Positions 8,327-50,283 of a stretch of 64,000 nucleotides of DNA are shown here, one piece after another; position 1 is the first letter of the stretch; each line of letters opens with the position of its first letter. Where the stretch lies: contig JAJZIM010000012.1 in assembly GCA_021810565.1 (NCBI GenBank), forward strand, positions 325 through 64,324, given 5' to 3'. The stretch is from Bacillota bacterium. Its GTDB lineage: Bacteria; Bacillota; Sulfobacillia; JAJZIM01. The notes beneath the pieces were generated by a model. The model searched no databases and was not told the origin of the DNA. It saw nothing but the letters and a program-made list of their open reading frames with translations. Made by a program: the position numbers and the translations under genes.

Positions 8327-8785
8327 TTGCCGTATCGGGAATTGACGCCCGAGACCAAGCTGGCGGCGGTGCGGGAGGTGTGGGGGCGGGGCGGCCGGGT
8401 GGCGGTGGTGGCCAGGAAATACGGCGTGTCCCGCGTTTCCCTGTACCGCTGGACCGCCCTGGCCGAGGGCACCATGCGGGAGGCCTTGGCCGAGGGACCC
8501 GGACCGCGACGGCAAGCCGACCTTTCCCGCCTCGAGGAGGAGAACGCGGCGTTGCGCCGCTACCTGGTGCGCCTAGCGGTTCAGGCCCGCGCCGCTGGGG
8601 TGCAGGTGGAGCCGCCCGGCGAGGAGTGGGAACCGCCTCCCGCGGCATGCCCGCGGTGCGGCAGCCGCAAAATGTGGCGGGACGGCTTCTATGCCGCCAA
8701 GGGAGGCCGTCGGCAACGCTACGAGTGCTCCAGCTGCCACCTGGTCGTCTACCAGGGAGGCTCGACCCGCGCCGACGGGTGGTGA
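8327..8785 (+). CDS. Transposase-derived DNA-binding protein: IS3 OrfA-like HTH, leucine-zipper stretch, and a C-terminal CxxC...CxxC zinc ribbon
   Basis: ETKLAAVREVWGRGGRVAVVARKYGVSRVSLYRWT resembles the HTH of IS3-family OrfA. CPRCGS...CSSCH forms a zinc ribbon. No catalytic transposase ORF follows. Confidence 0.5.
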   Translation: MPYRELTPETKLAAVREVWGRGGRVAVVARKYGVSRVSLYRWTALAEGTMREALAEGPGPRRQADLSRLEEENAALRRYLVRLAVQARAAGVQVEPPGEEWEPPPAACPRCGSRKMWRDGFYAAKGGRRQRYECSSCHLVVYQGGSTRADGW

Positions 8786-21917: not shown

Positions 21918-22367
21918 TTGCCGCGGGTAGAGGTGTCCCGAACGGTGCCGGCGTCCCCGGAAGCGGTCTACGCCTTCCTGCAGCGCATGGAGGAATTCCC
22001 GCGCTACATGAAAAGCGTGGACGAGGTGCGGGTGCTGGAGCGGGGAGAGGGCTTCACGGTCACGCGCTGGGCCACCCGGCTGCACGGCGCCCCCTTCCGC
22101 TGGACGGAGCGGGACGAGTTCGACGACCGGGAGTGGCGCGTGCGCTACCGGCTGGTGGAGGGCGACCTGAAGCGGTTCGAGGGGGAATGGATCCTGGAGC
22201 CATCGGGCGGGGCCACGGCGGTCACCCTGACCGTGGATTTCGAGTTCGGCATGCCCATGATCGCATCCCTTTTGAATCCCGTGGCGCGCCTGATGATCCG
22301 GGAGAACGTGATGGACATGCTGGCGGCCGTGGAGCGGGCCCTGGCCGAGGGAGGAGATGCACCTTGA
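21918..22367 (+). CDS. SRPBCC (polyketide cyclase/START-like) domain protein
   Basis: TTG start after a gggagggag RBS. The 150-aa product has the helix-grip-like pattern (PRVEVSRTVPASPEAVYAFL...). Confidence 0.5.
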   Translation: MPRVEVSRTVPASPEAVYAFLQRMEEFPRYMKSVDEVRVLERGEGFTVTRWATRLHGAPFRWTERDEFDDREWRVRYRLVEGDLKRFEGEWILEPSGGATAVTLTVDFEFGMPMIASLLNPVARLMIRENVMDMLAAVERALAEGGDAP

Positions 22368-23254
22368 CCATCAACCAACTGGAGGTGTTCTGCGCCGTGG
22401 CGGCCCGCAGAAGCTTCTCCCTGGCGGCCAAGGCGGTGAACCTGTCCCAGCCGGCGGTCAGCCTGCAGGTCCAGTCGCTGGAGGAGCATTACGGCACGCG
22501 TCTGTTCGACCGCAGCGTGAACTCCATCTCCTTGACTCCCATGGGGGAGATCCTGTACCAGCACGCCAGGAACATCCTGAGCATCTGGGAACAGGCCGAT
22601 CGGGAGATCCGGGACCACATCGGATCCATGGAGGGGGAGGTGATGGTGGGAGCCAGCACCACCGTGGGCCAGTACGTGCTGCCCCGGGTCATCGGCAACT
22701 TCCAGCGCAAGTTCCCCCTGGCGGTGGTGCGCCTGCAGGTGAAGAACACGGCCGAGATCATCCGCCTGCTGACGGAGAACATTCTGGACCTGGGTCTGTT
22801 GGAGGCCAGCGTGGACAACAAGAAGCTGGCCTGCGACGCCCTCACCACCGACCGCATTGTGCTCATCATCGGCACCGAGCATCCCTGGGCTGGCCGCGAG
22901 TACGTGGTGGCCGCGGAGCTTCGGGGAGAGCCGCTCATCCTTCGGGAGCCCGGCTCCGGCACCCGCCGGGTGGTGGAGCGGGCTTTGCGCGACGCCAACT
23001 TGCGCATGGAGGATTTCGGCCGGGTGATGGAGCTTGGGAGCACCGAGGCCATCAAGACGGCGGTGGAGTCGGGGCTGGGCATCGCCTTCGTTTCTCAATG
23101 GGCGGTGCGCAAAGAGCTGCAACTGGGCTCCCTGAAGGTGATCCCGGTGCGCGATCTCTTGATCGAGCGCAGCTTCTGCGTGGCCTATCCCCGGCAGAAG
23201 TTCAAGTCGCGCATGGCCGAGGAGTTCGTGAGCTTCGCCAAGAAACAGGTATGA
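22364..23254 (+). CDS. LysR-family transcriptional regulator
   Basis: TTG start overlapping the upstream stop. The N-terminal HTH (TINQLEVFCAVAARRSFSLAAKAVNLSQPAVSLQVQSLEE) is followed by a LysR substrate-binding domain. Confidence 0.8.
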   Translation: MTINQLEVFCAVAARRSFSLAAKAVNLSQPAVSLQVQSLEEHYGTRLFDRSVNSISLTPMGEILYQHARNILSIWEQADREIRDHIGSMEGEVMVGASTTVGQYVLPRVIGNFQRKFPLAVVRLQVKNTAEIIRLLTENILDLGLLEASVDNKKLACDALTTDRIVLIIGTEHPWAGREYVVAAELRGEPLILREPGSGTRRVVERALRDANLRMEDFGRVMELGSTEAIKTAVESGLGIAFVSQWAVRKELQLGSLKVIPVRDLLIERSFCVAYPRQKFKSRMAEEFVSFAKKQV

Positions 23255-23286
23255 GGGAGGCGGATAGGTGCATTAGAAGGTTTTAT

Positions 23287-23315
23287 TTGACCCGGATGCC
23301 CCGGACGGCTATGCT
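23287..23315 (+). promoter_or_regulatory. SigmaA promoter candidate TTGACC-N17-TATGCT
   Basis: Good hexamers and spacing immediately after the LysR stop. The predicted TSS is near 23322, which gives a leader of about 160 nt. Confidence 0.35.
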
Positions 23316-23319
23316 ATTA

Positions 23320-23481
23320 AATATAAGAAGTGTGCGACGACGCGCGGTCCGCCCCGGCGGGGCGGGTCCGGCGGCGCACCCGAGGCTTTCCGCGCGGGAA
23401 GCCGGGAACCGGTGTTTTGGGTCCAATAGGCTCGCGAAGGAGGTGAGTCGGACGACCCAGGGAGACCCGGGAGCGAGGTCG
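23320..23481 (+). promoter_or_regulatory. Long GC-rich structured 5' leader. Candidate cis-regulatory RNA (possibly cofactor-sensing) ahead of the molybdoenzyme/Moco operon.
   Basis: Nested complementary segments are visible (CCGCCCC-GGC-GGGGCGG, GACGCGCGG...CCGCGCGGG). The SD sequence aaggagg at 23436-23442 lies inside the leader. Confidence 0.2.
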
Positions 23482-24279
23482 GTGCGCCATTATCCCGGCT
23501 GCCAGGCGGCGGTGGTGTACCATGAGCGGCTCCTCGCGACGGAGGAGATCGCCGCCTGCCTGGGGCTGGCGATGGACCGGATGGCTCCGGAAGACTGCTG
23601 CGGCGGCGTGGAGGATCCCCCCAATTTCTTCAGCGGCATCGTGGCCCCCTTGCGCTTGGTGGACCTGGCGGGAGAGGACCAACTGGCCACCTCCTGCCTG
23701 TCCTGCTTGGCCAACCTGCGCGGCGCCTTCCGGCGCATGGACGAGAACCCTGAGACCAGGCGGCGGGCCGCCTTCTCCATGCAGGTGGTGGGCTACCGGG
23801 TGCCGGAGGGCACCGGGGCGCGGCACCTGCTGGATCTGCTGGCCCAGGGGGATCTGGCGGCGGCGGTGGCCGAGCGCGCCGTGGGGGATCTTTCCGGCCT
23901 GCGGGCGGCGGTCTACTACGGCTGCCGCAAGGGCGAGTTGGCGGAGCGGACTCCGGCGGCGGTGGAGGAAACCCTGCGCTCGTTGGGGGTGGAACTGGTG
24001 TCCTTCGCGGCGGCCGAGGAGTGTTGCGGCGCCCCCAAGGGTTACCGGGGCGGCCTGCCGGGAGGCAAAGGGCAAGCGGTGCTGCAGGGCGCGGCCCAGG
24101 CCGGAGCCGAGGTGGTGGTCACCGTGTGCGGCATGTGCCAGGCCAACCTAGAGAAGCAAAGGGGTGGTCCAGTTGTGATTCCCTTCCTGCAACTCCTGGC
24201 GGTGCCCCTGGGGATGGCGGAACGGGAAGTGTGGCTGAGGCGAAACGATACAGCAGAGGGAGGTCGAAAGGATGCCTGA
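23482..24279 (+). CDS. CCG-domain iron-sulfur protein (HdrB / GlpC / LutA-like) with two CCG cysteine-rich domains
   Basis: The N-terminus RHYPGCQ and two ...CCGG / ...CCGAP motifs fit PF02754-type CCG domains. GTG start with a weak gagcgagg SD. Confidence 0.6.
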   Translation: MRHYPGCQAAVVYHERLLATEEIAACLGLAMDRMAPEDCCGGVEDPPNFFSGIVAPLRLVDLAGEDQLATSCLSCLANLRGAFRRMDENPETRRRAAFSMQVVGYRVPEGTGARHLLDLLAQGDLAAAVAERAVGDLSGLRAAVYYGCRKGELAERTPAAVEETLRSLGVELVSFAAAEECCGAPKGYRGGLPGGKGQAVLQGAAQAGAEVVVTVCGMCQANLEKQRGGPVVIPFLQLLAVPLGMAEREVWLRRNDTAEGGRKDA

Positions 24280-26695
24280 GATCAAGCCCGACTACCGGCC
24301 GCAGGAGTCCACCCGGGACTACGATACCGTCCGGAGGACCACCTGCACCAACCAGTGCGAGTCAGGCTGTGGTATGAAGATCTATCTCAAGGAAGGGCGC
24401 ATCATCGACATCATGGGCGACGAGCGCCATCCCCTGAGCCGCGGCGGTCTTTGCAGCAAGGGGACCAGTCAGTTCCAGCGCTACTACAACCCCCTGCGGG
24501 TGCATTATCCCCATATCCGCAAGTCCCTGGATGATGAGTTCCGGCGGGTGAGCTGGGACGAGGCCATCGATTTCGTGGCCGAGCGGCTGACCCTTTTGAA
24601 GCAGCGCTACGGTCCCGAGGCCCTGGCCATCTTCCGCACCGGCCGCTCCTCTATGGGCAACAAGGTAGGCGGCGGGCGCTTCGGTAAGTTCTTCGGCACC
24701 CCCAACGTCTTCGGGCAGGGCCCCATCTGCTGCGAGAGCCCGGGGGCGGCCATGAACTACGTCTTCGGCGCCGAGGGCCTGGGCCGGCTTATGAACCCCT
24801 CCCCCGACTGGAAGCACTCCAAGTGCATTCTGATGGTGGGCACCGAGATGGCGGCTCAGGAGGTCATCACCTTCCGGGGGATCCTGGACGCCAAGGACGC
24901 CGGGGCCAAGATCATCGGCGTAGACCCCCGGTACAACTCCTCCATGTCCAAGGCCGACCTGTTCCTGATGGTGCGCAACAACACCGACACGGCGCTGTTT
25001 TTGGCCATGGGCAACGTCATCATCCAGGAGGGCCTGTACGACCGGGAGTTCGTGAACCAGTGGGTCTACGGCTTTGAGGAGTACCGGGAGGCCTGCGCCG
25101 AGTGGACGCTGGAGAAGGCGGAGCGGGTCACCATGGTGGACCGGGACCTGATCCTGAAGGCCGCCCGGCTCTTCGCCACCTCCAAGCCCGCCTCGGCCAC
25201 CGGGTGCCTGGGCACGGCCCAGCAGTACAACTCCAACAACATCAACCGCTCCATCGCCGCGCTCTTGGCCATCACCGGCAACGTGGGGATCAAGGGCGGC
25301 GGCTGGAACTGGCTGCACAACTGTCGGCCTCCCATGTCTTACGGCCAGGACACCAACGATGTTGCGGCCCCCAAGCGGCCCATCATCGCCGACAACCTGC
25401 TGCCCTGGGGCGACAACTCCGTGCCGACCATCATCAACGGCATGCTCCACGGCAAGCCCTACCCCATCCGGGGCCTGATCTGGAACGGCAACCACCTGCC
25501 CCAGTTCCCCAACGTGACCAAGACCGAGCAGGCCCTGCGCAAGAACCTGATCACCGTGCACCTGTCCCTCTATCCGAACCACACCTACCACTTCGCCCAC
25601 GCGGCCTTCCCCATCGCCATCGGCATGGAGACGGAGAGCATCTGCCATCACGGCAACAACCGCCTCATCCAGTGGCACAACAAGGTCATCGACTACCAGC
25701 ACGAGCACCGGCCGGATCTGTTTTTCTACAGCAAGCTGGCCAAGGCCATGGGCTTCGGGGACAAGTTCCCCTGGCTCACCAAGAACGACACCGACGTGGA
25801 CGAGCGGACCTTCACGGATTGGATGAACTCCCAGGACCACATGACCGCGGGCATAACCTCGGACCTGCTTGACCCGGAGAAGAACCCGCCGGGGGGCATC
25901 ATGTGGCCGGCGGAGAGCAAGAAGGAAGTCACCTTCCAGGATCCCGAGGCCACCATCCGCGGCAAGTGGATCATGTACCAGGAGGGGGACAACTACCCGG
26001 GCAGCAACCAGCGCTTCCCCACCCCCTCGGGCAAGATCGAGCTGGCATCCCCCTGGCTGGAGAAGTTCGGGTGGGACCGGGTGCCGCGCCACCGGGAGGC
26101 CAGCGAGACCTGGATCGCCAACCCGGAGCGGGCCAAGAAGTATCCCATCCAACTGAACACCTGCCGCATGACCTCCAGCTTCCACGAGGGCGGCCACTGG
26201 TGGCCCTGGGCCGACGAGCTGGTGCCCGACCGCTACATCCAGATCCATCCGGAGCTGGCCGGCCTTTTGGGCATCGAGGACGGCGACACGGTGATCCTGG
26301 AGAACGACCGGGGCGCCATCGACGGGCCCGCCTGGGTCACCGAGATGGTGCCGCCCTGGGGCAGCTGGGTCAACTTCGGCTTCGACCGCTACCAGCCCTT
26401 CCACCCCTACGAGACGGTCAACGTGGTCATCGACGACATCATCAAGGATCCGGTCTACGGCCAGATCCAATGGAAGTCCATGGCCGTGCGGATCCACCGC
26501 AAGGGCGACGACGGGGCCAAGGCCGCGGCCAAGGTGGACGCCTATCTGCGGGAGAACTACCCCAACCTGTTCAACGGCGAGGGTGTGCTCTTGGGCGAGT
26601 ACAAGAACCGGAACTGGGACTACGAGGAGCGCACACCCTGGGAGGATCCCTACGCCCAGGAGATCGCCACCGGCAACCTGAGCAGCAAGAAATAG
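24272..26695 (+). CDS. Molybdopterin (bis-MGD) oxidoreductase catalytic subunit, cytoplasmic (no Tat signal), with an N-terminal [4Fe-4S] motif
   Basis: 807 aa. The N-terminal CTNQCESGCGMK...C cluster motif and the length fit the DMSO-reductase superfamily. The start overlaps the upstream gene by 8 nt. Confidence 0.85.
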   Translation: MPEIKPDYRPQESTRDYDTVRRTTCTNQCESGCGMKIYLKEGRIIDIMGDERHPLSRGGLCSKGTSQFQRYYNPLRVHYPHIRKSLDDEFRRVSWDEAIDFVAERLTLLKQRYGPEALAIFRTGRSSMGNKVGGGRFGKFFGTPNVFGQGPICCESPGAAMNYVFGAEGLGRLMNPSPDWKHSKCILMVGTEMAAQEVITFRGILDAKDAGAKIIGVDPRYNSSMSKADLFLMVRNNTDTALFLAMGNVIIQEGLYDREFVNQWVYGFEEYREACAEWTLEKAERVTMVDRDLILKAARLFATSKPASATGCLGTAQQYNSNNINRSIAALLAITGNVGIKGGGWNWLHNCRPPMSYGQDTNDVAAPKRPIIADNLLPWGDNSVPTIINGMLHGKPYPIRGLIWNGNHLPQFPNVTKTEQALRKNLITVHLSLYPNHTYHFAHAAFPIAIGMETESICHHGNNRLIQWHNKVIDYQHEHRPDLFFYSKLAKAMGFGDKFPWLTKNDTDVDERTFTDWMNSQDHMTAGITSDLLDPEKNPPGGIMWPAESKKEVTFQDPEATIRGKWIMYQEGDNYPGSNQRFPTPSGKIELASPWLEKFGWDRVPRHREASETWIANPERAKKYPIQLNTCRMTSSFHEGGHWWPWADELVPDRYIQIHPELAGLLGIEDGDTVILENDRGAIDGPAWVTEMVPPWGSWVNFGFDRYQPFHPYETVNVVIDDIIKDPVYGQIQWKSMAVRIHRKGDDGAKAAAKVDAYLRENYPNLFNGEGVLLGEYKNRNWDYEERTPWEDPYAQEIATGNLSSKK

Positions 26696-26710
26696 AGGGG
26701 AGGCAATAGC

Positions 26711-27319
26711 ATGCAAGAAACCTTCGCCAAGAGCAACCCCTGGGAGGGGCGGGACTCGCGGGTGACCCTCAGGGGTCCCAAGACCCGGCTGGTCATGTCC
26801 GTGGACCTGGACCGGTGCATCGGCTGCTTTAGTTGCGAGATCTCCTGCAAGATGCAGAAGGACCTGCCGGTGGGTCCCCGCCTGATGCGGGTGATCCAGA
26901 TCGGACCGTACAAGGTCAAGGCCCACGGCAGCTTCCAGCTGCGCACCGTGTACATGCCCTTGAACTGCCGCCACTGCGAGCCCGCCCCTTGCATCGAGGT
27001 CTGCCCCACGGGGGCGATGCAGCGGCGGGAGAAGGATGGCATCGTCTTCGTGGCCCAGGAGCTGTGCATCGGGTGCAAGAGCTGCATCGCCGCCTGCCCC
27101 TTCGGGGCGCCGCAGCTGGACCCGCGCAACGGCAAGATCGTCAAGTGCGACTACTGCATGGACCGGGTGGACAAGGGTCTCTTGCCGGCCTGCGTCACCA
27201 AGTGCTCCATGGACGCCCTGCGCTTCGGGAACATCAACGAGCTGTCCACGGTGAGCCGGGAGAAGCATGTGCGCATGCTGACGGCCGACCTGTTCGACTG
27301 GAAGACGTCCCAGATCTGA
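26711..27319 (+). CDS. 4Fe-4S ferredoxin-type electron-transfer subunit (DmsB/HybA-like) of the molybdoenzyme
   Basis: Four Cys clusters (CIGCFSCEISC, CRHCEPAPC..C, CIGCKSCIAAC, CDYCMDR). Confidence 0.8.
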   Translation: MQETFAKSNPWEGRDSRVTLRGPKTRLVMSVDLDRCIGCFSCEISCKMQKDLPVGPRLMRVIQIGPYKVKAHGSFQLRTVYMPLNCRHCEPAPCIEVCPTGAMQRREKDGIVFVAQELCIGCKSCIAACPFGAPQLDPRNGKIVKCDYCMDRVDKGLLPACVTKCSMDALRFGNINELSTVSREKHVRMLTADLFDWKTSQI

Positions 27320-27350
27320 GGGCCGCCCTATATCAGCTGGAGGTGAGACG

Positions 27351-27596
27351 ATGGCTGGCGCACCTTTCGTAGGTACCGTGACGGCCGCCCCCTTTAGGGT
27401 GGAGTACATGAACGGAGACTTTGACCGGGCGGAGGAAGCACTCAAGAAGCAGGGGATCAAGATCACCGGTCGCAAGGTGATGAGCGTTCCCCCGTACCAT
27501 GCCACCATCTGGGTTCCGTTGGCCGACGAGGAGAAGGCCGCCAAGGTCTTGGCGGATGCGAAGGTAAAGACCCATCCCGTAAAGCCGGTGTACTAG
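27351..27596 (+). CDS. Hypothetical 81-aa protein downstream of the Fe-S subunit
   Basis: ORF only. No recognisable motif. Confidence 0.3.
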   Translation: MAGAPFVGTVTAAPFRVEYMNGDFDRAEEALKKQGIKITGRKVMSVPPYHATIWVPLADEEKAAKVLADAKVKTHPVKPVY

Positions 27597-27614: not shown

Positions 27615-28901
27615 ATGGGGCGGTCCAGCGTCGAGGAACTCGTCTCGCTGATCCTGGGGGAGGTGCCGGTGCTCCGGGAGACGGAGCAGGTTCCGGTGCC
27701 CCGGGCGGTGGGGCGCGCCCTGAGCGCGGATGTGACCGCCCCGGTGGACCTGCCGTCCTTCACCCGCTCGGCGGTGGACGGCTACGCCGTCAACAGCGAG
27801 GACCTGCGGGCGGCGTCGGGGGAGACCCCCGTGACCCTGCGGGTGGTGGAGAAGGTCACCGCCGGGCACGTGCCTCAGGCGGCCCTGGGCGGCGGCGAGG
27901 CGGCCCTGACCACCACCGGCGCCATGCTGCCGGAGGGCGCGGACGCCGTGATCCTGGTGGAGGAGGCCTCCCGGACGGAGGAGGACCGGGTGGTGCTCAC
28001 CCGGTCGGCCCAGCCGGGGCAACATGTGTCTCCCGTGGGCGAGGACTTTCAAAAGGGGCAACAGCTCTTGTCCCGCGGCCATCTGCTGCGGCTGGTGGAC
28101 GTGGCGGCCCTGGCGGCCCTGGGGATCACCCGGGTGCCGGTGGTGCGCCGCCCCCGGGTGGCCATCTATTCCACGGGTGACGAGTTGGTGTCGCCAGGTG
28201 ATCGCCTGGGCCCGGCCCAGGTCTACGACTCCAACGCCTACCTGCTGGAGGCGGCGGTGTTGGAGGCGGGAGGGGATCCCCACCGCCTGGGGGCCCTGCC
28301 TGACGAGGCTGAGGACGTGGAGGCATATATCTATCGAGCCTGCTCCGACGGCGCCTTCGACCTTTTGGTCACCACGGGCGGCACGGGAGCGAGCCTCTTG
28401 GTGTTGGAGGGGCAGGACGTGGAGAATATCCACGATCTGATCCCCGCGGTGGTGGCCAAGTTGGGCCGGCTGAAGAGCCACGGCCTGCGCATGATCCCGG
28501 GCAAGCCCACGGCCTTCGGCGAGGTGGCCGGCAAGCCGGTGTTCTCCCTGGCCGGATGGCCCTATTCGGCCATCATGACCTTCCATCTATTCGTCCGACC
28601 GGCCATCCGGAAGATGGCTGGCCTGCCGCCCCTGAGTCACGAGCGAACGATCACCGCCCGCCTGACCCAGGCGGTGGAGACGGAGGAGGGTACCAGGAAA
28701 TATTTCCAGGTGCGCCTGGAGGAGCGGGACGGCCAGTGGTGGGCTCAGCCGCTTTTGCCGCCGCGGCCTCCCTCTGCGGCCCGGACCATGCGCCAGATGC
28801 TGGAGGGCAACGGCTATTTCCACCTGGACGGCACCCAGGTGGCGCGACTCGGCGAGGGGGACACGGTGCAGGTTACCGTGGACGATCCGGCATGGACCTG
28901 A
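27615..28901 (+). CDS. moeA: Molybdopterin molybdenumtransferase MoeA (copy 1)
   Basis: SFTRSAVDGYAV and the GGTG signature fit MoeA. Length 428 aa. Confidence 0.85.
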   Translation: MGRSSVEELVSLILGEVPVLRETEQVPVPRAVGRALSADVTAPVDLPSFTRSAVDGYAVNSEDLRAASGETPVTLRVVEKVTAGHVPQAALGGGEAALTTTGAMLPEGADAVILVEEASRTEEDRVVLTRSAQPGQHVSPVGEDFQKGQQLLSRGHLLRLVDVAALAALGITRVPVVRRPRVAIYSTGDELVSPGDRLGPAQVYDSNAYLLEAAVLEAGGDPHRLGALPDEAEDVEAYIYRACSDGAFDLLVTTGGTGASLLVLEGQDVENIHDLIPAVVAKLGRLKSHGLRMIPGKPTAFGEVAGKPVFSLAGWPYSAIMTFHLFVRPAIRKMAGLPPLSHERTITARLTQAVETEEGTRKYFQVRLEERDGQWWAQPLLPPRPPSAARTMRQMLEGNGYFHLDGTQVARLGEGDTVQVTVDDPAWT

Positions 28902-29785
28902 TCCCCTCCCTGCGGGTGGCCGTTTGGTCGGCTTGCGACCTGTCCTGCGAATATTGCCACCGGGAGGGGGACGTGCATCCCGGACGACATTTGGCAGACC
29001 GGGAACTTTTGATGCTGCTGCGGACGGCCCTGCCCCTGGGGCTGCGCAAAATCAAGCTCACCGGCGGTGAGCCACTGTTGCGTCCGGGCCTGCCTGCTCT
29101 GGTGCGGGAGCTGGCAACCCTGGGAGCTGACCTCTCCCTCACCACCAACGGCCTGGAACTGGCCACCCAGGCGGGCGACCTGGCCGCGGCCGGGTTGCGG
29201 CGCGTTAATATCAGCCTGGACACCCTGCGGCCCGAGCGTTTCCGGGAACTTACCGGGGAGGACCGCCTGGCCGGGGTGCTGGAGGGCGTCCGGGCGGCCG
29301 CCAAGGCCGGACTGGCCCTGGAGCTGGACGCGGTGGTCCTGCGGGGCGTCAACGAGGAGGAGACGGTAGATCTTATCGCTTTCGCCGGGGGCCTCGGGGC
29401 GCGGATCCAGTTCATCGAGCTGTCCCAGGTGGGCATCTCCTCCACCTATTACCGGCGTCGCCACCGGGATCTGGAGTCCCTGGAGCGCTGGCTGCGGGAG
29501 CGGGGCGAGGCGCTGGAGGACGCCACGCGCCGCTTCGACCGGCCGCGCTTTCGGGTGAACGGGGTGACGGTCAGCCTGTGCCGCTTCGTCCGCTACGCGG
29601 AACCCGGAGCGCGCCGCCGCGGTTTGCGTTTGGCGGCCGACGGCCGAGTGTACGGTTTCCGCTACGGAGAGCCGCCCCGCGCCGATCTGGGGGCGGCGTT
29701 GCGTGGCGGGGCGGGCCAGGCCCGGCTGACGGAGCTTTGGGCCCGGTGCGTCCGGATTGGACAGGAGGTATCGGCGGCTAGATGA
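28892..29785 (+). CDS. MoaA-family radical-SAM protein (CDLSCEYC) that appears to LACK the three C-terminal auxiliary-cluster cysteines of GTP 3',8-cyclase
   Basis: The radical-SAM CX3CX2C motif, KIKLTGGEPLL, NISLDTL and RIQFIELS align with MoaA. In the C-terminal region where MoaA has C-x2-C-x13-C, this product has VSLCRFVRYAEPGARRRGLRLAADGRVYGFRYGE with no CxxC and no third Cys. Confidence 0.65.
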   Translation: MDLIPSLRVAVWSACDLSCEYCHREGDVHPGRHLADRELLMLLRTALPLGLRKIKLTGGEPLLRPGLPALVRELATLGADLSLTTNGLELATQAGDLAAAGLRRVNISLDTLRPERFRELTGEDRLAGVLEGVRAAAKAGLALELDAVVLRGVNEEETVDLIAFAGGLGARIQFIELSQVGISSTYYRRRHRDLESLERWLRERGEALEDATRRFDRPRFRVNGVTVSLCRFVRYAEPGARRRGLRLAADGRVYGFRYGEPPRADLGAALRGGAGQARLTELWARCVRIGQEVSAAR

Positions 29786-30273
29786 AGCTGAGGCTTTCCG
29801 GCCGGGAGGCCGGGTTGGACTTTCAAAACGTGCATCTGGTGCCGGGACGCGGCAAGTGCAGCGGGTTGCATCCCCATTTCCACAGCCTCTCCGTGACGGT
29901 GGAGGGGGAGCTGTCGGAGCGGGGGATGCTGGTGCATCTGTATCGCCTGAAGGATGCGGTGCGGGCCTTGTGCGAGGAGTTGGACCATCGGGTGCTCCTG
30001 GCGGACTACCCCCCCGCGGTGATGCAGATCCGGGAGGAGGACGCGGGCTATCAGGTGGAAGTCAACGACAAGCGGTATTTTCTGCCCCGCCAGGACGTGG
30101 TGCGCTTACCCATCGGTTCCCTGAACGTGGAGGATCTGTGCCGCTACCTCACCGCCCGGCTGGCCGATGCCCTGGACCCCATCCTGGATCGCGACCGTCT
30201 GACCTCCCTTACGGTGGAGCTGGACGAGGGCGGCGGACAGGCGGCCTCCCTGACCGTGGCCTTGCGGGGATGA
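29782..30273 (+). CDS. 6-pyruvoyl-tetrahydropterin synthase / QueD-family (T-fold) protein, at the position where moaC would be expected
   Basis: FQNVHLVPGRGKCSGLHPHFHSLSVTVEGE and GMLVHLYRLKDAV...LDHRVLL align with the QueD/PTPS Zn-site motifs (H-x-L-P ... C-x-x-LHGH-x-F ... GE, and the LDH box). There is no similarity to MoaC. Confidence 0.65.
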   Translation: MKLRLSGREAGLDFQNVHLVPGRGKCSGLHPHFHSLSVTVEGELSERGMLVHLYRLKDAVRALCEELDHRVLLADYPPAVMQIREEDAGYQVEVNDKRYFLPRQDVVRLPIGSLNVEDLCRYLTARLADALDPILDRDRLTSLTVELDEGGGQAASLTVALRG

Positions 30274-30869
30274 CCGGCGCCGTGCTGGCGGGGGGAAGCA
30301 GCACCCGCATGGGTCAGGAGAAGGGGCTGGTCCAATTGGCCGGGCGCCCGCTGGCCGACATCGTGGCCACCCACCTGGAGTGCTCCCCCGGGGTGGAGCG
30401 GGTGCTTTTGGTCACCAACCACCCGGAGCGGTTCGCGGATCTGGGATGGGAGATGATCGCCGACCGCCACCCGGGGCGGGGTCCCCTGGCCGGGATCCAC
30501 GCCGCCCTCCAGTTGGCCGAGGACTGGGTGTTCGTAGCCGGGTGCGACATGCCCTTCCTGCCGGCCGAACTCCCCGCCGCCCTGCATGCCCTGCGGGACG
30601 GCGTCGACCTGGTCCTGCCGCGGGTCGGCGGCCACGCCGCCACCGTGGCGGCCCTGTACGGACCGGGGTGCCTCCCGGCGCTGGAGGAGGCCCTGCGGGG
30701 GGAGGGCCCGCGCTTGGCCCAGGTGTTGCCGGCCCTGCGGGTGCGGGAGGTGGGCGAGGATCAACTCGTCCGCTGGGGCGATCCAGCCTTGCGCTTCCTG
30801 AGCGTCAACTCGCCCCGGGACTTGGCGCGGGCCGCGGTCCTGGCGGAAGGGAGGAAACTCCTGTGGTAA
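30270..30869 (+). CDS. mobA: Molybdenum cofactor guanylyltransferase MobA
   Basis: MTGAVLAGGSSTRMG N-terminus. The start overlaps the upstream stop (ATGA). Confidence 0.75.
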   Translation: MTGAVLAGGSSTRMGQEKGLVQLAGRPLADIVATHLECSPGVERVLLVTNHPERFADLGWEMIADRHPGRGPLAGIHAALQLAEDWVFVAGCDMPFLPAELPAALHALRDGVDLVLPRVGGHAATVAALYGPGCLPALEEALRGEGPRLAQVLPALRVREVGEDQLVRWGDPALRFLSVNSPRDLARAAVLAEGRKLLW

Positions 30870-32071
30870 GTTTGGAGGAGGCCTTGGAGTCACTGCTGGG
30901 CCGGACGGGAGCCTTGGACGCCGAGGAGGTGGCCCTGGCCGAGACCCACGGCCGAGTGCCGGCCGGGGACATATGCGCCCCGGTGGACCTCCCCGCCTTC
31001 GACCGTTCGGCCATGGACGGCTACGCCGTGCGCTCCTCCGATACCGCCGGCGCCCGGGAGGAGGCGCAGGTTCGTCTCGTCCTGCGCGGGGAACTGCCGG
31101 CGGGGGCGAGCCTTCAGCCAGGGGAGGCGGTGCGGGTGGCCACCGGCGGACCGCTGCCGCGGGGGGCGGACGCGGTGCTGGTGGTGGAGGCGACCCGGGA
31201 GGACGCCGCGGCGGTGTGGGCCCGCGCCGCGGTCAGGCCCAGGGACAACGTCATCCGGCGGGGCAGCGACGTGTCGCGAGGCACGGTGGTCCTGGAGCGG
31301 GGAACCCAGCTCGACGCCGCCGCCCTGGGGCTCTTGGCGGGTCTGGGGGTCACCCGGATCCGAGTGTTTCGCCGCCCGCGGGTGCACCTTTTGGTCACCG
31401 GGGACGAGGTGGTGGCGCCCCACGAGGAACCGGGTCCGGGACAGATCCGGGACCAGAACAGCCTGGGGATAGGGTGGGCGTGTCGGGAGGCTGGCGCCGA
31501 GGTGGTCGGCTGTGCCCGGGTGGGGGACGACCCCGATCGCCTGCGGGAGGCCCTGACGGCGGGGCGCGGCGCCGAGGTGATCCTGGTATCGGGGGGGGTC
31601 TCCGTGGGACGCCGCGACTTTTTGCGCCGGGTGGTGGCCGAGATGGGGGGCGAGGAGCTATTCTGGCGGGTGCACATGCGTCCCGGGAAGTCCGCCCTGG
31701 GCGCCCTGGTGGATGGTCGGCCGTTGGTGGGGCTCGCGGGCAGCCCCGGATCGGCCATGCTTACCTTCCAACTGCTGGTGCGCCCGTTGCTGCGGCATCT
31801 GGGCGGCCATCGCTACCTGGCACGACCCCGGGTGCCGGTGCGGCTGGCCGAGGGTTTTCCCAAGGCCTCGCCGCGGCCGCGCTACCTGCGGGCGACGGTG
31901 GGGGAGGACGCCGCGGGCCCCATGGCCCATCTGATTTCTGGGCAGGGTTCCGATTCGACCTTCTCCTGGCTGCGGGCCAACGCCCTGGTGGTGGTGCCGG
32001 GGGGTTCCGGGCCCTTGGCGGCCGGGGAGAGCTTGGAGGCCATCATGCTGGACCGTCCCGAGGAGCATTGA
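30863..32071 (+). CDS. moeA: Molybdopterin molybdenumtransferase MoeA (copy 2)
   Basis: GTG start with a gaagggagga RBS, overlapping the mobA stop. FDRSAMDGYAV and the full MoeA architecture are present. Confidence 0.8.
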   Translation: MVSLEEALESLLGRTGALDAEEVALAETHGRVPAGDICAPVDLPAFDRSAMDGYAVRSSDTAGAREEAQVRLVLRGELPAGASLQPGEAVRVATGGPLPRGADAVLVVEATREDAAAVWARAAVRPRDNVIRRGSDVSRGTVVLERGTQLDAAALGLLAGLGVTRIRVFRRPRVHLLVTGDEVVAPHEEPGPGQIRDQNSLGIGWACREAGAEVVGCARVGDDPDRLREALTAGRGAEVILVSGGVSVGRRDFLRRVVAEMGGEELFWRVHMRPGKSALGALVDGRPLVGLAGSPGSAMLTFQLLVRPLLRHLGGHRYLARPRVPVRLAEGFPKASPRPRYLRATVGEDAAGPMAHLISGQGSDSTFSWLRANALVVVPGGSGPLAAGESLEAIMLDRPEEH

Positions 32072-32084
32072 GGAGGCGAGGCGA

Positions 32085-32603
32085 ATGTATCCGGAGAGGG
32101 TAGCGGAGTACAAGCGGGCCATCAATGTGGATGCGGCCAAATGCAACGCCTGCGGCGAGTGCATCCCCGCCTGCCAGCAGGCCATAGCCTATGAGCATCG
32201 CAAGGCGGATCCCTTCCCCCGCATCTGGATCCAGCGGGTGGGCCAGAAGCTGCAGCCCCTTTTGTGCCACAATTGCGAGCAGGCTCCCTGCGTCAGCGCC
32301 TGCATGACCGGCTGCCGGCACCGGGACGGTGACTTCGTCACCACCGATTACGACCGCTGCGTGGGCTGCAGCATGTGCGTGATGTGCTGCCCCTTCGGGG
32401 TGATCCAACTGGTGGAGGAGGAGAAGCTGGCCATGAAATGCGACGGCTGCCTGGAGCACGAGACGGCGCCCTGCGTGGCCGCCTGCAAGCCCGGCGCCCT
32501 GCGCCACGTGGGCTATCTGGAATCGGCCCAGATCACGCGCTGGGACAAGGCCGGAGAGTTCGCCTTCAGCCAAGTGGTCTCCGCCGGAAAGGGGGAGCGT
32601 TAG
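32085..32603 (+). CDS. Multi-cluster 4Fe-4S ferredoxin
   Basis: Four Cys motifs (CNACGECIPAC, CHNCEQAPCVSAC, CVGCSMCVMCC, CDGCLEHETAPCVAAC). Confidence 0.75.
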   Translation: MYPERVAEYKRAINVDAAKCNACGECIPACQQAIAYEHRKADPFPRIWIQRVGQKLQPLLCHNCEQAPCVSACMTGCRHRDGDFVTTDYDRCVGCSMCVMCCPFGVIQLVEEEKLAMKCDGCLEHETAPCVAACKPGALRHVGYLESAQITRWDKAGEFAFSQVVSAGKGER

Positions 32604-33869
32604 ATGCGCTACGTGATGATCGGCAACTCCTACGCGGGCCTGGCGGCCGCCGAGGCCGTGCGGCGCCGGGACCCCAAAGGGGAGATCATGGTGCTCTCCG
32701 ACGAGCGTCACGAGGCCTACGGGCGCCCGCTGATCTCCTATTACCTGGGAGGCGAGACGCCTCCGGAGCGGATGAACTACCGCCCGGCCGCCTTCTATCG
32801 GAACCACCGGATCCAAGTCCGCACGGATTCCCGGGTGGTCAAGGTGTTGCCGGACAGCCGTCATCTGCAACTGGCGGACGGCACCGACCTCGCCTATGAC
32901 CGGCTGATGATCTCCACCGGGGGCAAGCCCTTCGTGCCGCCCATGAAGGGCACCGATGCGCGGGGCGTGTTCACCTTCACTACCTGGCAGGATGCCGACG
33001 ACATCAAGGAATGGCTGCCCCGGGTGCGGGACGTGATCGTCATCGGGGGCGGGCTCATCGGCCTGTCGGCGGCGGATGCCCTGCGCCACCGCGGCGGGGT
33101 GGGCGTGACGGTGGTGGAGATGTTGCCCCGAGTCCTGGGCCTGGCCCTGGACGAGGACGGCTCCAACCTGCTGCAAAACCGCATGGTGGAGTTGGGTACT
33201 CAGGTGGTCACCGAGGACTCGGTGACGGAGATCGTGCCCGATGGGGACGGGGTAGTGCAGGGGGTGGTCCTGAAGAGCGGCCGGGAGTTGCCCTGCCAGA
33301 TGGTGGTGGTGGCCATCGGCGTGCGGCCCAACACCGGCTTTCTTCAGGAGTCCGGCATCCAGATCAACCGGGGCATCGTGGTCGACGAGCGCATGGCTAC
33401 CAACCTGCCCGGCGTCTACGCCGCGGGGGACGTGGCGGAGGGATACGACGTGATCAACGCCGATCACCGCATCATCGCCATCCTGCCGGTGGCCTACGAG
33501 ATGGGGCTGATCGCCGGCGCCAACATGGCCGGAGATTCTCAGCTATATGCCGGGGGCATCGCCATGAACTCCATGCCCAAATTCGAGATGTCGGTGATGA
33601 CCATGGGACTCACCCTGGATCAGCCGGATTTGGAGGCGGTGCGCCGACGCCGCGGCGACCAGTATCAGAAGTTCCTATTTCGCGGCGATCAACTGGTCGG
33701 GGCCATCCTGGTGGGCGACACCACCGCCGGTGGTGTGCTGACCGCCCTGATCAAGAAGCAGGAAACCCTGACCGCCGCCCTGAAGGAGCGCATCCTCTAC
33801 GGGAACTACCGGTCTTTGGTGGCGGAGCGCAAGCTGACCTGGGCCAAGGCGGCCAAGGCCGCCTCTTAG
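32604..33869 (+). CDS. FAD/NAD(P)-binding oxidoreductase of the ferredoxin/rubredoxin-reductase type
   Basis: Two Rossmann GxGxxG regions (VMIGNSYAG, VIGGGLIGLSAA) and EAYGRPLISYY (compare Y-x-RPPLSK of ferredoxin reductases). No redox-active Cys pair. The start overlaps the ferredoxin stop. Confidence 0.7.
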   Translation: MRYVMIGNSYAGLAAAEAVRRRDPKGEIMVLSDERHEAYGRPLISYYLGGETPPERMNYRPAAFYRNHRIQVRTDSRVVKVLPDSRHLQLADGTDLAYDRLMISTGGKPFVPPMKGTDARGVFTFTTWQDADDIKEWLPRVRDVIVIGGGLIGLSAADALRHRGGVGVTVVEMLPRVLGLALDEDGSNLLQNRMVELGTQVVTEDSVTEIVPDGDGVVQGVVLKSGRELPCQMVVVAIGVRPNTGFLQESGIQINRGIVVDERMATNLPGVYAAGDVAEGYDVINADHRIIAILPVAYEMGLIAGANMAGDSQLYAGGIAMNSMPKFEMSVMTMGLTLDQPDLEAVRRRRGDQYQKFLFRGDQLVGAILVGDTTAGGVLTALIKKQETLTAALKERILYGNYRSLVAERKLTWAKAAKAAS

Positions 33870-48567: not shown

Positions 48568-48827
48568 TGGTCGCTGGTCGAGCGGGGGCGTCGACCCGTG
48601 GGTGCCCCCCATGGCCGGCGACGCGCGGGAGACGTCGTCTGCGCTGCCAGGGCTCGCGAGGTTGCCCCGAGGGCCAGCGCGGGAACGGCTCGGGCCCTCA
48701 CCGCGGCAGGCCGGCGGGGTGGAGAGAGGCCGGAGCGGAGAAAGGCAGGTAGGGTGAACATGAGCGCTTCGGCGCAGGACGGGACGGCTGCAGGGGGCGG
48801 CGGGCCGGCGGGCCCCGGTCCCCGGTC

Positions 48828-50108: not shown

Positions 50109-50249
50109 AGCGGCCCACGGGGCGTGGGATTGCCTGCGGGCATGCAGTCTTGCGAACACGTTTTCGGAAGGTTGTATAGTAGACATGGGGTAGACTTTTA
50201 CTTTATGATTGCTGGGAGAACCCAAGCGCAAAAGCAGAAAGGGGGGAAG

Positions 50250-50275: not shown

Positions 50276-50283
50276 CAAGGCGG

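What the first reader, a model, noticed from the sequence alone, without database searches (positions are those of the whole stretch)
23482..27596. Cytoplasmic molybdoenzyme whose third subunit is an HdrB-like CCG-domain protein rather than a membrane anchor
The gene order is CCG protein (2 CCG domains), bis-MGD catalytic subunit (no Tat signal, N-terminal 4Fe-4S motif), 4-cluster ferredoxin subunit, then an 81-aa ORF. Classical DmsABC/PsrABC/PhsABC-type enzymes are periplasmic and use an integral membrane anchor. A CCG-domain partner points to thiol/disulfide or quinone coupling, as in HdrB and type-E succinate dehydrogenase. The substrate cannot be inferred. It is co-localised with a LysR regulator, Moco genes, and a ferredoxin plus ferredoxin-reductase module (32085..33869) that could feed electrons from NAD(P)H.
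Basis: partly seen in the sequence, partly recalled or inferred. Interest (0 to 1): 0.6.

Follow-up and report, generated by a model that had tools for sequence, protein, structure and literature searches.

The report
Soluble molybdoenzyme with HdrB-like partner
This is a real, conserved 11-gene operon for a rare, uncharacterised cytoplasmic molybdenum enzyme joined to an HdrB-like iron-sulfur protein and an NAD(P)H-linked ferredoxin module, and the genes beside its relatives in other genomes suggest a role in sulfur energy metabolism, possibly sulfite oxidation.

Summary
Window 23443/23482-27596 holds four tightly packed genes. They are an HdrB-like protein with two complete CCG motifs, an 807-aa bis-MGD subunit with no Tat signal, a 16-Cys four-cluster ferredoxin subunit, and an 81-aa protein.

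These genes open an 11-gene operon that runs to 33869. The rest of the operon encodes MoeA, a MoaA-like enzyme, a PTPS-like protein, MobA, a second MoeA, a polyferredoxin and an FAD NAD(P)H oxidoreductase.

The catalytic subunit belongs to a sharply separated clade. Identity within the clade is at least 49%, and the next relatives are at about 33%. It was found in 29 of 185,579 species genomes. It passes no curated family threshold and has its own active-site signature.

The universal partners are FeSB and the 81-aa protein. The polyferredoxin and reductase are common partners. The CCG gene sits directly upstream only in the Thermaerobacter/Sulfobacillus and acid-mine-drainage branch.

In other lineages the operon lies inside or next to type II sHdr-LbpA clusters, QmoAB-HdrCB or Sat-AprBA-Qmo.

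Best reading: a soluble, NAD(P)-linked enzyme that converts a sulfur compound, with sulfite as the leading candidate. The substrate and the direction of electron flow are unproven. I found no description of it in the literature. It is a new variant of a known kind, and interest is about 0.66.

The parts
22364..23254 (+). LysR-family regulator, upstream and co-oriented, 227 nt before the operon
   Evidence: Pfam HTH_1 + LysR_substrate. The start was refined to TTG 22364. A LysR homologue (253 bits) also lies next to the clade member in L028.
23287..23315 (+). Sigma-70-like promoter candidate in the LysR-CCG intergenic region
   Evidence: TTGACC-17-TATGCT, 9/12 matches. This is a consensus match only. 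No Rfam riboswitch was found in 22900-24000.
23443..24279 (+).
   Evidence: Pfam CCG 6.6e-13. NCBIfam SdhE 57 bits and HdrB 40 bits, both far below cut-off. PDB HdrB 8e-10. All 10 motif Cys conserved 20/20. 100% match to P0121, Thermaerobacter sp., 278 aa. The stop overlaps the MoA start by 8 nt.
24272..26695 (+). Catalytic bis-MGD subunit (MoA), 807 aa. FS0 cluster ligands are C25/C29/C33/C61. The likely Mo/W ligand is Cys153. There is no Tat signal.
   Evidence: Pfam domain trio. No NCBIfam cut-off reached. Clade gap 49% to 33%. Ligand mapped by alignment to HDCR FdhF Cys and AH Cys141; Glu30 aligns with AH Asp13. Clade-specific signature residues.
26711..27319 (+). Four-cluster ferredoxin subunit (FeSB), DmsB/PsrB type
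   Evidence: Pfam Fer4_11. NCBIfam DmsB 169 bits, below the cut-off of 214. 16 Cys in four motifs. Top PDB hit is PsrB 2vpw_B at 4e-31.
27351..27596 (+). Small 81-aa subunit (orf81): no Cys, no Pfam family, ACT-like beta-alpha-beta-beta-alpha-beta fold
   Evidence: Conserved motif PIRV(D/E)Y.NGD...PYHATI in every bacterial clade locus and in archaeal loci. AF2 pLDDT 69, with Foldseek hits to ACT domains. Only about 9 clusters in 1.84 billion representative proteins.
27615..28901 (+). MoeA paralogue 1 (Mo/W insertase)
   Evidence: Pfam MoeA_N + MoCF_biosynth. NCBIfam MoeA-type models. Syntenic in the CCG-bearing branch.
28892..29785 (+). Divergent MoaA-like radical SAM enzyme
   Evidence: Pfam Radical_SAM. 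NCBIfam MoaA 199 bits, below the cut-off of 325, over the full model length. Start refined.
29782..30273 (+). PTPS/QueD-like protein
   Evidence: Pfam PTPS 7e-14. NCBIfam 6PTHBS 51 bits, below cut-off. Conserved at this position in the CCG-bearing branch.
30270..30869 (+). MobA-like guanylyltransferase
   Evidence: phmmer 168 bits to the MobA (NTP_transf_3) protein of L087. Start at 30270. The AMD branch has a longer MobA-like gene here.
30863..32071 (+). MoeA paralogue 2
   Evidence: Pfam MoeA_N, MoCF_biosynth and MoeA_C. Start refined to GTG 30863.
32085..32603 (+). Polyferredoxin (Fd), four [4Fe-4S] motifs, HycB/AorA/PadI-like
   Evidence: Pfam Fer4 families. NCBIfam YgfT/AegA/PadI N-terminal regions. 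PDB HycB3 1.5e-19 and AorA 8c0z_C 8e-12. Cys pattern.
32604..33869 (+). FAD-dependent NAD(P)H:ferredoxin oxidoreductase (FdR), AorC/PadH-like
   Evidence: Pfam Pyr_redox_2 + Rubredoxin_C. NCBIfam PadH 286 bits, below the cut-off of 475. Top PDB hit is AorC 8c0z_E at 3.6e-49 over the full length. It has no CoADR-type active-site Cys. Its start abuts the Fd stop, gap 0 nt.

Best explanation
The operon encodes a soluble, cytoplasmic complex iron-sulfur molybdoenzyme (Mo or W, bis-MGD) of a previously undescribed clade.

Shown by sequence:
- A catalytic subunit with an FS0 [4Fe-4S] site and a Cys metal ligand.
- A four-cluster ferredoxin subunit.
- A small ACT-like subunit.
- An HdrB-like protein with two non-cubane-cluster motifs.
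- A polyferredoxin plus an FAD/NAD(P)H oxidoreductase of the AorA/AorC type.
- Dedicated cofactor-maturation genes.
- No signal peptide and no membrane anchor.

Inferred wiring: Mo-bisMGD <-> FS0 <-> FeSB. From FeSB there are two outlets. One runs through Fd and FdR-FAD to NAD(P)+/NAD(P)H. The other, in this branch, runs to the HdrB-like subunit, which couples to a thiol/disulfide (or persulfide) couple.

Inferred function: the enzyme works in dissimilatory sulfur metabolism. The leading candidate reaction is oxidation of cytoplasmic sulfite to sulfate, with water activated near the metal (invariant Glu30). The low-potential electrons would go to NAD(P)+ and/or the HdrB-like site. This would make it a soluble counterpart of membrane-bound SoeABC.
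For: Architecture:
- Domain and motif assignments.
- Operon packing.
- No TM or Tat features.

Synteny:
- CCG-MoA-FeSB-orf81-MoeA-MoaA-like-PTPS-MobA-Fd-FdR is kept in Sulfobacillus/Thermaerobacter relatives and in about 18 acid-mine-drainage genomes, including Ca. Acidulodesulfobacterium.
- MoA-FeSB-orf81 (+TorD, Fd, FdR) is kept in Chloroflexota, Nitrospirota-like and Thermoleophilia genomes, with a variant form in archaea.

New clade:
- Identity gap from 49% to 33%.
- No curated family cut-off is met.
- Best PDB relatives are at 22-24% identity.
- The signature residues are invariant in 27 members and absent from the 92 nearest homologues.

Sulfur link:
- The operon is embedded in type II sHdr-etfAB-emo-lbpA-lplA clusters in Ardenticatenaceae and marine Anaerolineales. 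This cluster type is as defined in PMC11094781.
- It is divergent from QmoA-QmoB-HdrC-HdrB in L019 and L090.
- It lies directly after Sat-AprBA-QmoABC, with TusA nearby, in L084.
- It lies beside Sat-AprBA in L028.

Direction:
- The nearest characterised relatives of FdR and Fd are AorC/AorA and PadH/PadI.
- From established knowledge, those modules reduce NAD+ with electrons from substrates near -500 mV. The sulfate/sulfite couple is about -516 mV.

Glu30 aligns with the water-activating Asp13 of acetylene hydratase.
Against: - No activity data exist, and the substrate is inferred from neighbourhood only.
- The window itself and the acid-mine-drainage loci carry no other sulfur genes within reach.
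- Sulfobacillus genomes already have SoeABC-like operons (PMC4378227), so a second sulfite dehydrogenase is not required there.
- In L084 and L028 the neighbouring Sat/AprBA is itself a sulfite-oxidising or sulfite-forming route, so the Mo enzyme there could handle a different sulfur compound.
- Archaeal loci show no sulfur genes nearby, only Moco genes.
- Orthology to SoeA could not be tested.
- The physical association of the CCG protein, Fd and FdR with MoA/FeSB is inferred from gene order.
- The active-site loops are poorly modelled, with pLDDT below 50.
Confidence: 0.4

Rival explanations
1. The complex is the same, but it works as an NAD(P)H-driven cytoplasmic reductase. Electrons flow NAD(P)H -> FdR -> Fd -> FeSB -> Mo. 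The substrate would be a sulfur compound (tetrathionate, polysulfide/S0, thiosulfate) or another oxyanion or oxide, for respiration, detoxification or assimilation.
For: - FdR also resembles the NADH-accepting N-terminal part of NirB (241 bits) and ferredoxin/rubredoxin reductases.
- The FeSB subunit is closest to PsrB.
- PhsA is the second-best NCBIfam model for MoA.
- The sulfur-gene neighbourhoods fit reduction of a sulfur compound as well as oxidation.
Against: - The closest characterised homologues of the Fd/FdR pair (AorAC, PadHI) work towards NAD+ reduction (plus established knowledge).
- The sHdr context is an oxidative pathway (PMC11094781).
- Thiosulfate reduction by NAD(P)H is thermodynamically unfavourable (established redox potentials).
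- No nitrate, nitrite, arsenic or selenium genes were seen in the annotated related loci, and phmmer with queries taken from the window and from loci L080-L092 flagged none in the remaining clade loci. Those queries did not include nitrate, nitrite, arsenic or selenium proteins.
Confidence: 0.27
2. The CCG protein is not a thiol/disulfide catalyst. It would be a peripheral membrane and quinone-coupling subunit, as SdhE is in type-E succinate:quinone reductases. The enzyme would then be a membrane-attached quinone-linked oxidoreductase, functionally like SoeABC or PsrABC but without an integral anchor.
For: The best NCBIfam match of the CCG protein is SdhE of the methylmenaquinol:fumarate reductase (57 bits, aligned over residues 3-224). 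CCG proteins such as SdhE and GlpC are known to link soluble modules to quinone (established knowledge).
Against: - The score is far below the SdhE cut-off of 500.
- PDB matches are all HdrB.
- The most hydrophobic stretch is part of the conserved HdrB core rather than an added amphipathic anchor.
- A complete NAD(P)-linked outlet is encoded in the same operon.
- The CCG gene is missing from half of the clade.
Confidence: 0.15
3. It is an acetylene-hydratase-like or hydroxylase-type enzyme that acts on an organic or other non-sulfur substrate. The sulfur-gene neighbourhoods would be coincidental or would reflect shared regulation.
For: - Glu30 occupies the position of AH Asp13, and Cys153 occupies that of AH Cys141.
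- AH is among the top sequence and fold matches.
- The operon in the window sits among housekeeping genes.
Against: - AH is a monomer without electron-transfer partners. This enzyme always has FeSB and usually Fd/FdR.
- Identity to AH is only about 24%.
- Sulfur-gene adjacency recurs in at least five unrelated lineages.
Confidence: 0.1
4. It is a formate dehydrogenase / CO2 reductase coupled to an Hdr-like module, as in methanogen Fdh-Hdr complexes.
For: - The best NCBIfam and PDB sequence matches are FdhF-type enzymes.
- An FdhD gene occurs in one related locus, L092.
- The Fd resembles HycB3/HycB4 of the HDCR.
Against: - The residue after the Cys ligand is Cys or Thr followed by Glu, not the catalytic His.
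- The FDH loop NPLRGQNN with the catalytic Arg is replaced by the invariant WNWLHNCRPP.
- TIGR01591 scores 285 against a cut-off of 666.
Confidence: 0.04

Closest known systems
SoeABC, cytoplasm-facing sulfite:quinone dehydrogenase (Allochromatium vinosum, Aquifex aeolicus)
   Same: - A Mo-bisMGD catalytic subunit with a Cys ligand plus a four-cluster FeS subunit.
- No signal peptides, with the active site in the cytoplasm.
- It occurs in organisms that make sulfite in the cytoplasm (sHdr, rDsr). This is taken from PMC10100899 and PMC4378227.
   Different: - SoeC is an integral NrfD/PsrC-type quinone-reducing anchor. Here there is none.
- Here the partners are an 81-aa soluble subunit, an HdrB-like protein and an NAD(P)-linked Fd/FdR pair.
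- Sequence relationship to SoeA was not tested.
PsrABC / PhsABC polysulfide and thiosulfate reductases
   Same: Cys-ligated bis-MGD subunit. The FeSB subunit's best solved relative is PsrB. PhsA is the second-best curated model for MoA.
   Different: Psr/Phs enzymes are Tat-exported and anchored by PsrC. This enzyme has no Tat motif and no anchor. PhsA scores 214 against a cut-off of 694. Identity to PsrA is 22%.
Acetylene hydratase (Pelobacter acetylenicus, PDB 2e7z)
   Same: Cytoplasmic, with a Cys metal ligand at the aligned position and an acidic residue directly after the second FS0 cysteine (Asp13 in AH, Glu30 here). It is among the top fold matches.
   Different: AH is a non-redox monomer without FeS, ferredoxin or flavoprotein partners. 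Identity is only 24%. The FS0 spacing here is CX3CX3C, not CX2CX3C.
AorABC tungsten aldehyde oxidoreductase (PDB 8c0z) and PadEFGHI phenylglyoxylate:NAD+ oxidoreductase electron-transfer modules
   Same: A polyferredoxin of about 170 aa plus an FAD/NAD protein of about 420 aa, encoded next to a pterin enzyme. FdR's best solved relative is AorC (3.6e-49, full length), and its best curated model is PadH.
   Different: The catalytic partner there is an AOR-family W enzyme or a 2-oxoacid:ferredoxin oxidoreductase-type enzyme, not a MopB/DMSO-reductase-family subunit. The PadH cut-off is not reached (286 against 475).
HdrB / sHdrB of heterodisulfide reductase and the sulfur-oxidising sHdr complex
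   Same: Two CCG motifs with all ten cysteines. Only HdrB chains match in the PDB.
   Different: There is no HdrC or HdrA in the operon, and FeSB would have to take the HdrC role. The HdrB model scores 40 against a cut-off of 345. The partner is a molybdoenzyme.

Membership tests
DMSO reductase (MopB) superfamily / complex iron-sulfur molybdoenzymes | Molybdop_Fe4S4 + Molybdopterin + Molydop_binding domains in the catalytic subunit, with a four-cluster ferredoxin partner | tested here: met
   Pfam hits all above cut-off. FeSB has 16 Cys in four motifs.
DMSO reductase (MopB) superfamily / complex iron-sulfur molybdoenzymes | Protein ligand to Mo/W at the conserved position | tested here: met
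   Cys153 aligns with the Cys ligand of HDCR FdhF and Cys141 of AH. It is invariant in the clade and present in 89/92 of the nearest homologues.
Formate dehydrogenase (FdhF/FdhA) | Sec/Cys ligand followed by the catalytic His, and the Arg of the NPLRGQNN loop | tested here: not met
   The sequence is C153-C154-E155, and the loop is WNWLHNCRPP. TIGR01591 scores 285 against a cut-off of 666.
Psr/Phs/Ttr-type periplasmic reductases | Tat signal peptide on the catalytic subunit | tested here: not met
   The N-terminus is MPEIKPDYRPQESTRDYDTVRRTTC, with no hydrophobic h-region before the first cluster Cys.
Psr/Phs/Ttr-type periplasmic reductases | Integral NrfD/PsrC-type membrane anchor encoded with A and B | tested here: not met
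   No operon product has a TM-like segment (maximum KD19 1.97, in a Cys-rich ferredoxin motif). No anchor was seen in the annotated related loci.
SoeABC sulfite dehydrogenase | Cytoplasmic orientation (no signal peptides on A and B) | tested here: met
SoeABC sulfite dehydrogenase | SoeC membrane anchor / quinone reduction | tested here: not met
   No membrane subunit is present.
SoeABC sulfite dehydrogenase | Catalytic subunit falls in the bSreA/SoeA lineage | not tested
   No SoeA reference sequence or curated model was available in the tools. None of the 25 best of the 26 NCBIfam families matched was a SoeA model.
Acetylene hydratase | Cys ligand plus a carboxylate after the second FS0 Cys | tested here: met
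   Glu30 aligns with Asp13 and Cys153 with Cys141. The residue here is Glu rather than Asp.
Acetylene hydratase | Stand-alone non-redox monomer | tested here: not met
   FeSB and orf81 always accompany it, and Fd/FdR usually do.
HdrB (CoB-CoM heterodisulfide reductase subunit B) | Two CCG motifs (CXnCCXnCXXC, twice) | tested here: met
   In the 265-aa protein the first motif is C7, C39/C40, C72, C75 and the second is C148, C181/C182, C216, C219. All ten are conserved 20/20.
HdrB (CoB-CoM heterodisulfide reductase subunit B) | Equivalog score and HdrC/HdrA partners | tested here: not met
   TIGR03288 scores 39.8 against a cut-off of 345. There is no HdrA or HdrC in the operon.
SdhE, type-E succinate:quinone reductase / MFR anchor | Equivalog score | tested here: not met
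   NF042965 scores 57.3 against a cut-off of 500.
Assimilatory nitrate reductase NasC/NarB | Equivalog score, and nitrite reductase or nitrate transporter genes nearby | tested here: not met
   NasC scores 183 against a cut-off of 1100. No nir or nrt genes appear in the Pfam-annotated related loci.
MOLY cluster of sulfur disproportionators (MolyABC) | Extracellular, Tat-dependent MolyA/MolyB (as described in PMC12998232) | tested here: not met
   There is no Tat signal here. Sequence orthology was not tested.

The most novel reading that the evidence does not exclude
This clade is a soluble sulfite dehydrogenase that passes the very low-potential electrons of sulfite directly to NAD(P)+ through an AorAC-like wire. 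In the Thermaerobacter/Sulfobacillus/AMD branch it also passes them to a thiol-disulfide or persulfide couple at an HdrB-like site. It would be the missing cytoplasmic sulfite-oxidising step of type II sHdr sulfur oxidisers, and a way to make reducing power from sulfur without reverse electron flow.
Probability: 0.25. Interest if true: 0.85.

Novelty: new variant of a known kind. Interest (0 to 1): 0.66.

Why it matters
Cytoplasmic sulfur oxidation by sHdr or rDsr ends in sulfite. The known ways to remove sulfite are SoeABC, AprBA/Sat, or export.

- An NAD(P)-linked soluble sulfite-oxidising (or other sulfur-converting) molybdoenzyme would add a new enzyme to the sulfur cycle.
- It would change energy budgets for acidophilic and thermophilic sulfur oxidisers, because NAD(P)H could be made directly from a sulfur substrate.
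- It would give a marker gene set (MoA signature plus orf81) for metagenome surveys.

Whatever the substrate, the pairing of a MopB enzyme with an HdrB-like subunit and an AorAC-type NAD module is, as far as my literature searches show, an undescribed way to wire this enzyme superfamily.

The conserved MoaA-like and PTPS-like pair also hints at an unusual route or variant of pterin cofactor synthesis.

Tried and rejected
- **Formate dehydrogenase:** rejected on active-site residues.
- **Assimilatory nitrate reductase and arsenate/selenate reductases:** no supporting neighbours were seen in the annotated related loci, and all scores are far below cut-off.
- **MOLY cluster of sulfur disproportionators:** described as Tat-exported, unlike this enzyme.
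- **Moco or other riboswitch in the 5' region:** none found.
- **tblastn against 72,556 plasmids:** nothing above 30% identity, so no annotated close relative.
- **Literature searches** for the clade or for Mo enzymes in sHdr, Sulfobacillus, Acidulodesulfobacterium or Hydrothermarchaeota contexts: nothing describes it. The Sulfobacillus comparative paper discusses TTR-like and SoeABC-like enzymes only.
- **Fold search of orf81:** gave only a generic ACT-like fold, with no functional lead.
- **Fold search of the MoA model:** equidistant FdhH, Nap and AH matches at 22-24% identity, which is not discriminating. The active-site loops were modelled with pLDDT below 50.
- **Context of a more distant outgroup locus, L075:** a periplasmic cytochrome-linked system, not informative.
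- **Formal phylogeny with characterised references (SoeA, bSreA, AH, PsrA):** could not be built, because the reference sequences could not be retrieved with the tools.

Full report
**1. What is in the sequence**

The window is high-GC DNA (about 66-70%) from a spore-forming Bacillota member. It encodes SpoIVA. The CCG and orf81 proteins are 100% identical to proteins of a Thermaerobacter sp. MAG.

At the reported coordinates there are four co-oriented genes.

- **CCG protein.**
  - It has a Pfam CCG hit, and its best curated and solved relatives are SdhE and HdrB.
  - Both C...CC...CxxC motifs are complete. All ten cysteines are conserved in 20 of 20 homologues found next to this enzyme.
  - Codon statistics show a real gene. 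GC3 is 0.84 inside the gene and 0.46 in the upstream part of the long ORF.
- **MoA.** It is 807 aa and has the three domains of a bis-MGD enzyme. It has no Tat leader.
- **FeSB.** It has 16 Cys in four ferredoxin motifs.
- **orf81.** It is conserved across phyla.
- No product has a credible transmembrane helix.

**2. The unit is larger than reported**

With refined starts, the gaps between consecutive genes from CCG to FdR are -8, 15, 31, 18, -10, -4, -4, -7, 13 and 0 nt. This makes an 11-gene operon from 23443/23482 to 33869.

The gene order is: CCG, MoA, FeSB, orf81, MoeA1, a divergent MoaA-like radical SAM enzyme, a PTPS/QueD-like protein, MobA, MoeA2, a four-cluster polyferredoxin, and an FAD/NAD(P)H oxidoreductase.

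A LysR gene lies 227 nt upstream. A promoter-like site lies in that gap, and there is no riboswitch.

**3. The catalytic subunit defines its own clade**

- A search of 5.8 billion proteins gave 28 clusters at 49% identity or more. The next hit drops sharply to about 33%.
- No NCBIfam equivalog is reached. Fdh-alpha scores 285 against a cut-off of 666, PhsA 214 against 694, and NasC 183 against 1100.
- The best solved relatives are FdhF, acetylene hydratase and PsrA at E about 1e-58 to 1e-50.
- The AlphaFold model (pLDDT 72.8) matches FdhH, monomeric Nap and acetylene hydratase about equally, at 22-24% identity.
- tblastn against plasmids found nothing above 30%.
- In one genome per species, 29 of 185,579 carry a clade member.
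- Cys153 aligns with the metal-ligand Cys of HDCR FdhF and with Cys141 of acetylene hydratase. Glu30, directly after the second FS0 cysteine, aligns with the water-activating Asp13 of acetylene hydratase.
- A set of residues is invariant or nearly so in 27 clade members and absent from the 92 nearest homologues. The set is Glu30; Cys154-Glu155; Trp347-x-His349-Asn350-Cys351-Arg352; His459-His460-x-Asn-Asn-Arg464; Glu639; His642-Trp-Trp-x-Trp646.
- The FDH catalytic His and Arg are missing, so this is not a formate dehydrogenase.

**4. Conserved partners**

phmmer of the window's proteins against all ORFs of the related loci, together with pre-computed Pfam annotation of further contigs, shows the following.

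- MoA-FeSB-orf81 is universal in bacteria.
- Archaea (Hydrothermarchaeota and others) have MoA, FeSB, a small ORF, a second FeS protein and TorD. Their orf81 homologue is encoded about 7 kb away.
- Fd+FdR accompany the enzyme in most bacterial lineages.
- The CCG gene sits directly upstream only in two groups: the Thermaerobacter/Sulfobacillus group (83-86% identity), and about 18 acid-mine-drainage genomes, including Ca. Acidulodesulfobacterium (62-63%).
- These same two groups also keep the MoeA, MoaA-like, PTPS and MobA block.

The 81-aa protein is therefore the family's constant third subunit. The HdrB-like protein is a branch-specific addition.

orf81 has no Cys and no Pfam family. Its moderate-confidence model has an ACT-like fold. 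Its family is tiny, with about 9 clusters in 1.84 billion representatives.

**5. The NAD(P) module**

- FdR's best solved relative is AorC of the Aromatoleum tungsten aldehyde oxidoreductase (8c0z_E, 3.6e-49, full length). Its best curated model is PadH of phenylglyoxylate:NAD+ oxidoreductase.
- FdR lacks the CoADR-type active-site Cys.
- Fd resembles HycB3/HycB4, AorA and the PadI N-terminus.
- By established knowledge, those modules carry electrons from substrates near -500 mV to NAD+.

**6. Functional context elsewhere**

In lineages that lack the adjacent CCG gene, the operon repeatedly lies with dissimilatory sulfur genes.

- It sits inside a type II sHdr cluster (shdr genes, etfAB, emo, three lbpA, lplA, two radical SAM lipoate genes) in Ardenticatenaceae (L082/L083).
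- It sits directly after the same kind of cluster in marine Anaerolineales (L017, L091). This cluster type is defined in PMC11094781.
- It is divergent from QmoA-QmoB-HdrC-HdrB in a Nitrospirae MAG and a groundwater contig (L019, L090).
- It lies directly downstream of Adk-Sat-AprB-AprA-QmoABC, with TusA nearby (L084).
- It lies beside Sat-AprBA in L028, where MoA is split over three frames.
- It lies beside HdrA/Qmo-like flavoproteins in an Altiarchaeales genome (weaker hits).
- No nitrate, arsenic, selenium or formate genes were seen in the annotated loci, apart from a single FdhD in L092.
- Molybdate transporter (MOT1) genes are frequent neighbours.

**7. Interpretation**

The shared theme is cytoplasmic sulfite. 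sHdr produces it, and AprBA/Sat consume or produce it.

Three features fit sulfite oxidation with NAD(P)+ as acceptor:
- the enzyme is a cytoplasmic, Cys-ligated oxo-transferase;
- it has a water-activating carboxylate;
- it is joined to an NAD+-reducing type of wire.

In the window's branch, the HdrB-like subunit would add a thiol/disulfide or persulfide site. FeSB would play the role of HdrC.

This is inference from neighbourhood and homology. There are several weak points.
- The window and the acid-mine-drainage loci have no other sulfur genes nearby.
- Sulfobacillus already has SoeABC-like operons (PMC4378227).
- Archaeal contexts are uninformative.
- Orthology to SoeA could not be tested.

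The main rival keeps the same complex but runs it as an NAD(P)H-dependent reductase of a sulfur compound or another oxide. A quinone-coupling, SdhE-like role for the CCG protein and an acetylene-hydratase-like chemistry on a non-sulfur substrate remain possible at lower probability.

**8. Comparison with known systems, and novelty**

- It works most like SoeABC (cytoplasmic, Cys-ligated, with an FeS subunit), but it lacks the defining SoeC anchor.
- It shares single features with acetylene hydratase (the carboxylate and Cys).
- Its FeS subunit resembles PsrB.
- Its NAD module is AorAC/PadHI-like.
- It meets the definition of the MopB superfamily but of no characterised family within it.
- Nine full-text literature searches found no description of this clade or architecture. 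The broad MopB survey in PMC10100899 lists cytoplasmic bSreA/SoeA and AH families, but my term searches of it ('uncharacterized', 'unknown function', 'heterodisulfide', 'Sulfobacillus', 'novel clade') returned nothing of this kind.

I rate it a new variant of a known kind, with interest of about 0.66. The architecture is solidly established. The sulfur link is moderately supported. The specific substrate is open.

Noticed in passing
window 28892-30273 (also L001, L003-L012, L026, L080, L087): A divergent MoaA-like radical SAM gene (NCBIfam MoaA 199 bits, below the cut-off of 325) is always followed by a PTPS/QueD-like gene, in the slot where MoaC would be expected. The pair lies between MoeA and MobA. 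This could be an alternative cPMP-forming pair or a pterin-cofactor variant made for this enzyme.
   Followed up: partly
window 27351-27596; L085 20267-20608(-), L086 21407-21748(-), L089 10432-10764(-): The orf81 family (motif PIRV[DE]Y.NGD...PYHATI, ACT-like fold, no Cys) is extremely rare, with about 9 clusters in 1.84 billion representative proteins. In archaeal loci it is encoded about 7 kb from the Mo operon on the opposite strand and carries an N-terminal extension.
   Followed up: partly
L093 7001-14108: A distant relative of MoA (P0031, 33% identity) sits in a different operon. That operon has a TPP enzyme, two HcyBio (DUF39) genes, a Fer4+CCG (HdrD-like) protein, an AbpE-like gene and a URO-D-like gene. 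This is a second pairing of a MopB enzyme with a CCG protein, again with a sulfur flavour.
   Followed up: no
L028 5819-8313: The clade member next to Sat-AprBA in this MAG is split over three reading frames. It is either a pseudogene or an assembly error. A LysR homologue of the window's regulator (253 bits) lies beside it.
   Followed up: no
window 27615-28901 and 30863-32071: There are two MoeA paralogues in one operon. This may reflect Mo/W discrimination, or one may serve the two pterins differently. The metal (Mo versus W) is unresolved. MOT1-type molybdate transporter genes flank the operon in several relatives.
   Followed up: no
window 9462-10871: A cytochrome b (bc/b6f type) is fused to a C-terminal mono-haem cytochrome c domain (PSCyt1).
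   Followed up: no
window 50209-57121 and 62147-63505; GC dip at 56-62 kb: Very large secreted proteins combine Big_1/invasin-D3 repeats with pro-kumamolisin activation and peptidase A4 domains (1422 aa and 869 aa). They lie next to a region of lower GC (56-60% against about 68%), which may be horizontally acquired. A Tad/ParA-like pilus-assembly gene pair lies just upstream (46966-50108).
   Followed up: no
window 8327-8785: A transposase HTH-domain ORF. A similar small HTH_Tnp_1 ORF lies just upstream of the CCG gene in the AMD loci L080 and L081, which hints at mobility of the operon.
   Followed up: no
window 24362-27544 (-): A 1060-aa ORF lies antisense to MoA/FeSB. It is a high-GC artefact: the sense genes have GC3 of 0.93-0.94 and have homologues.
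   Followed up: yes
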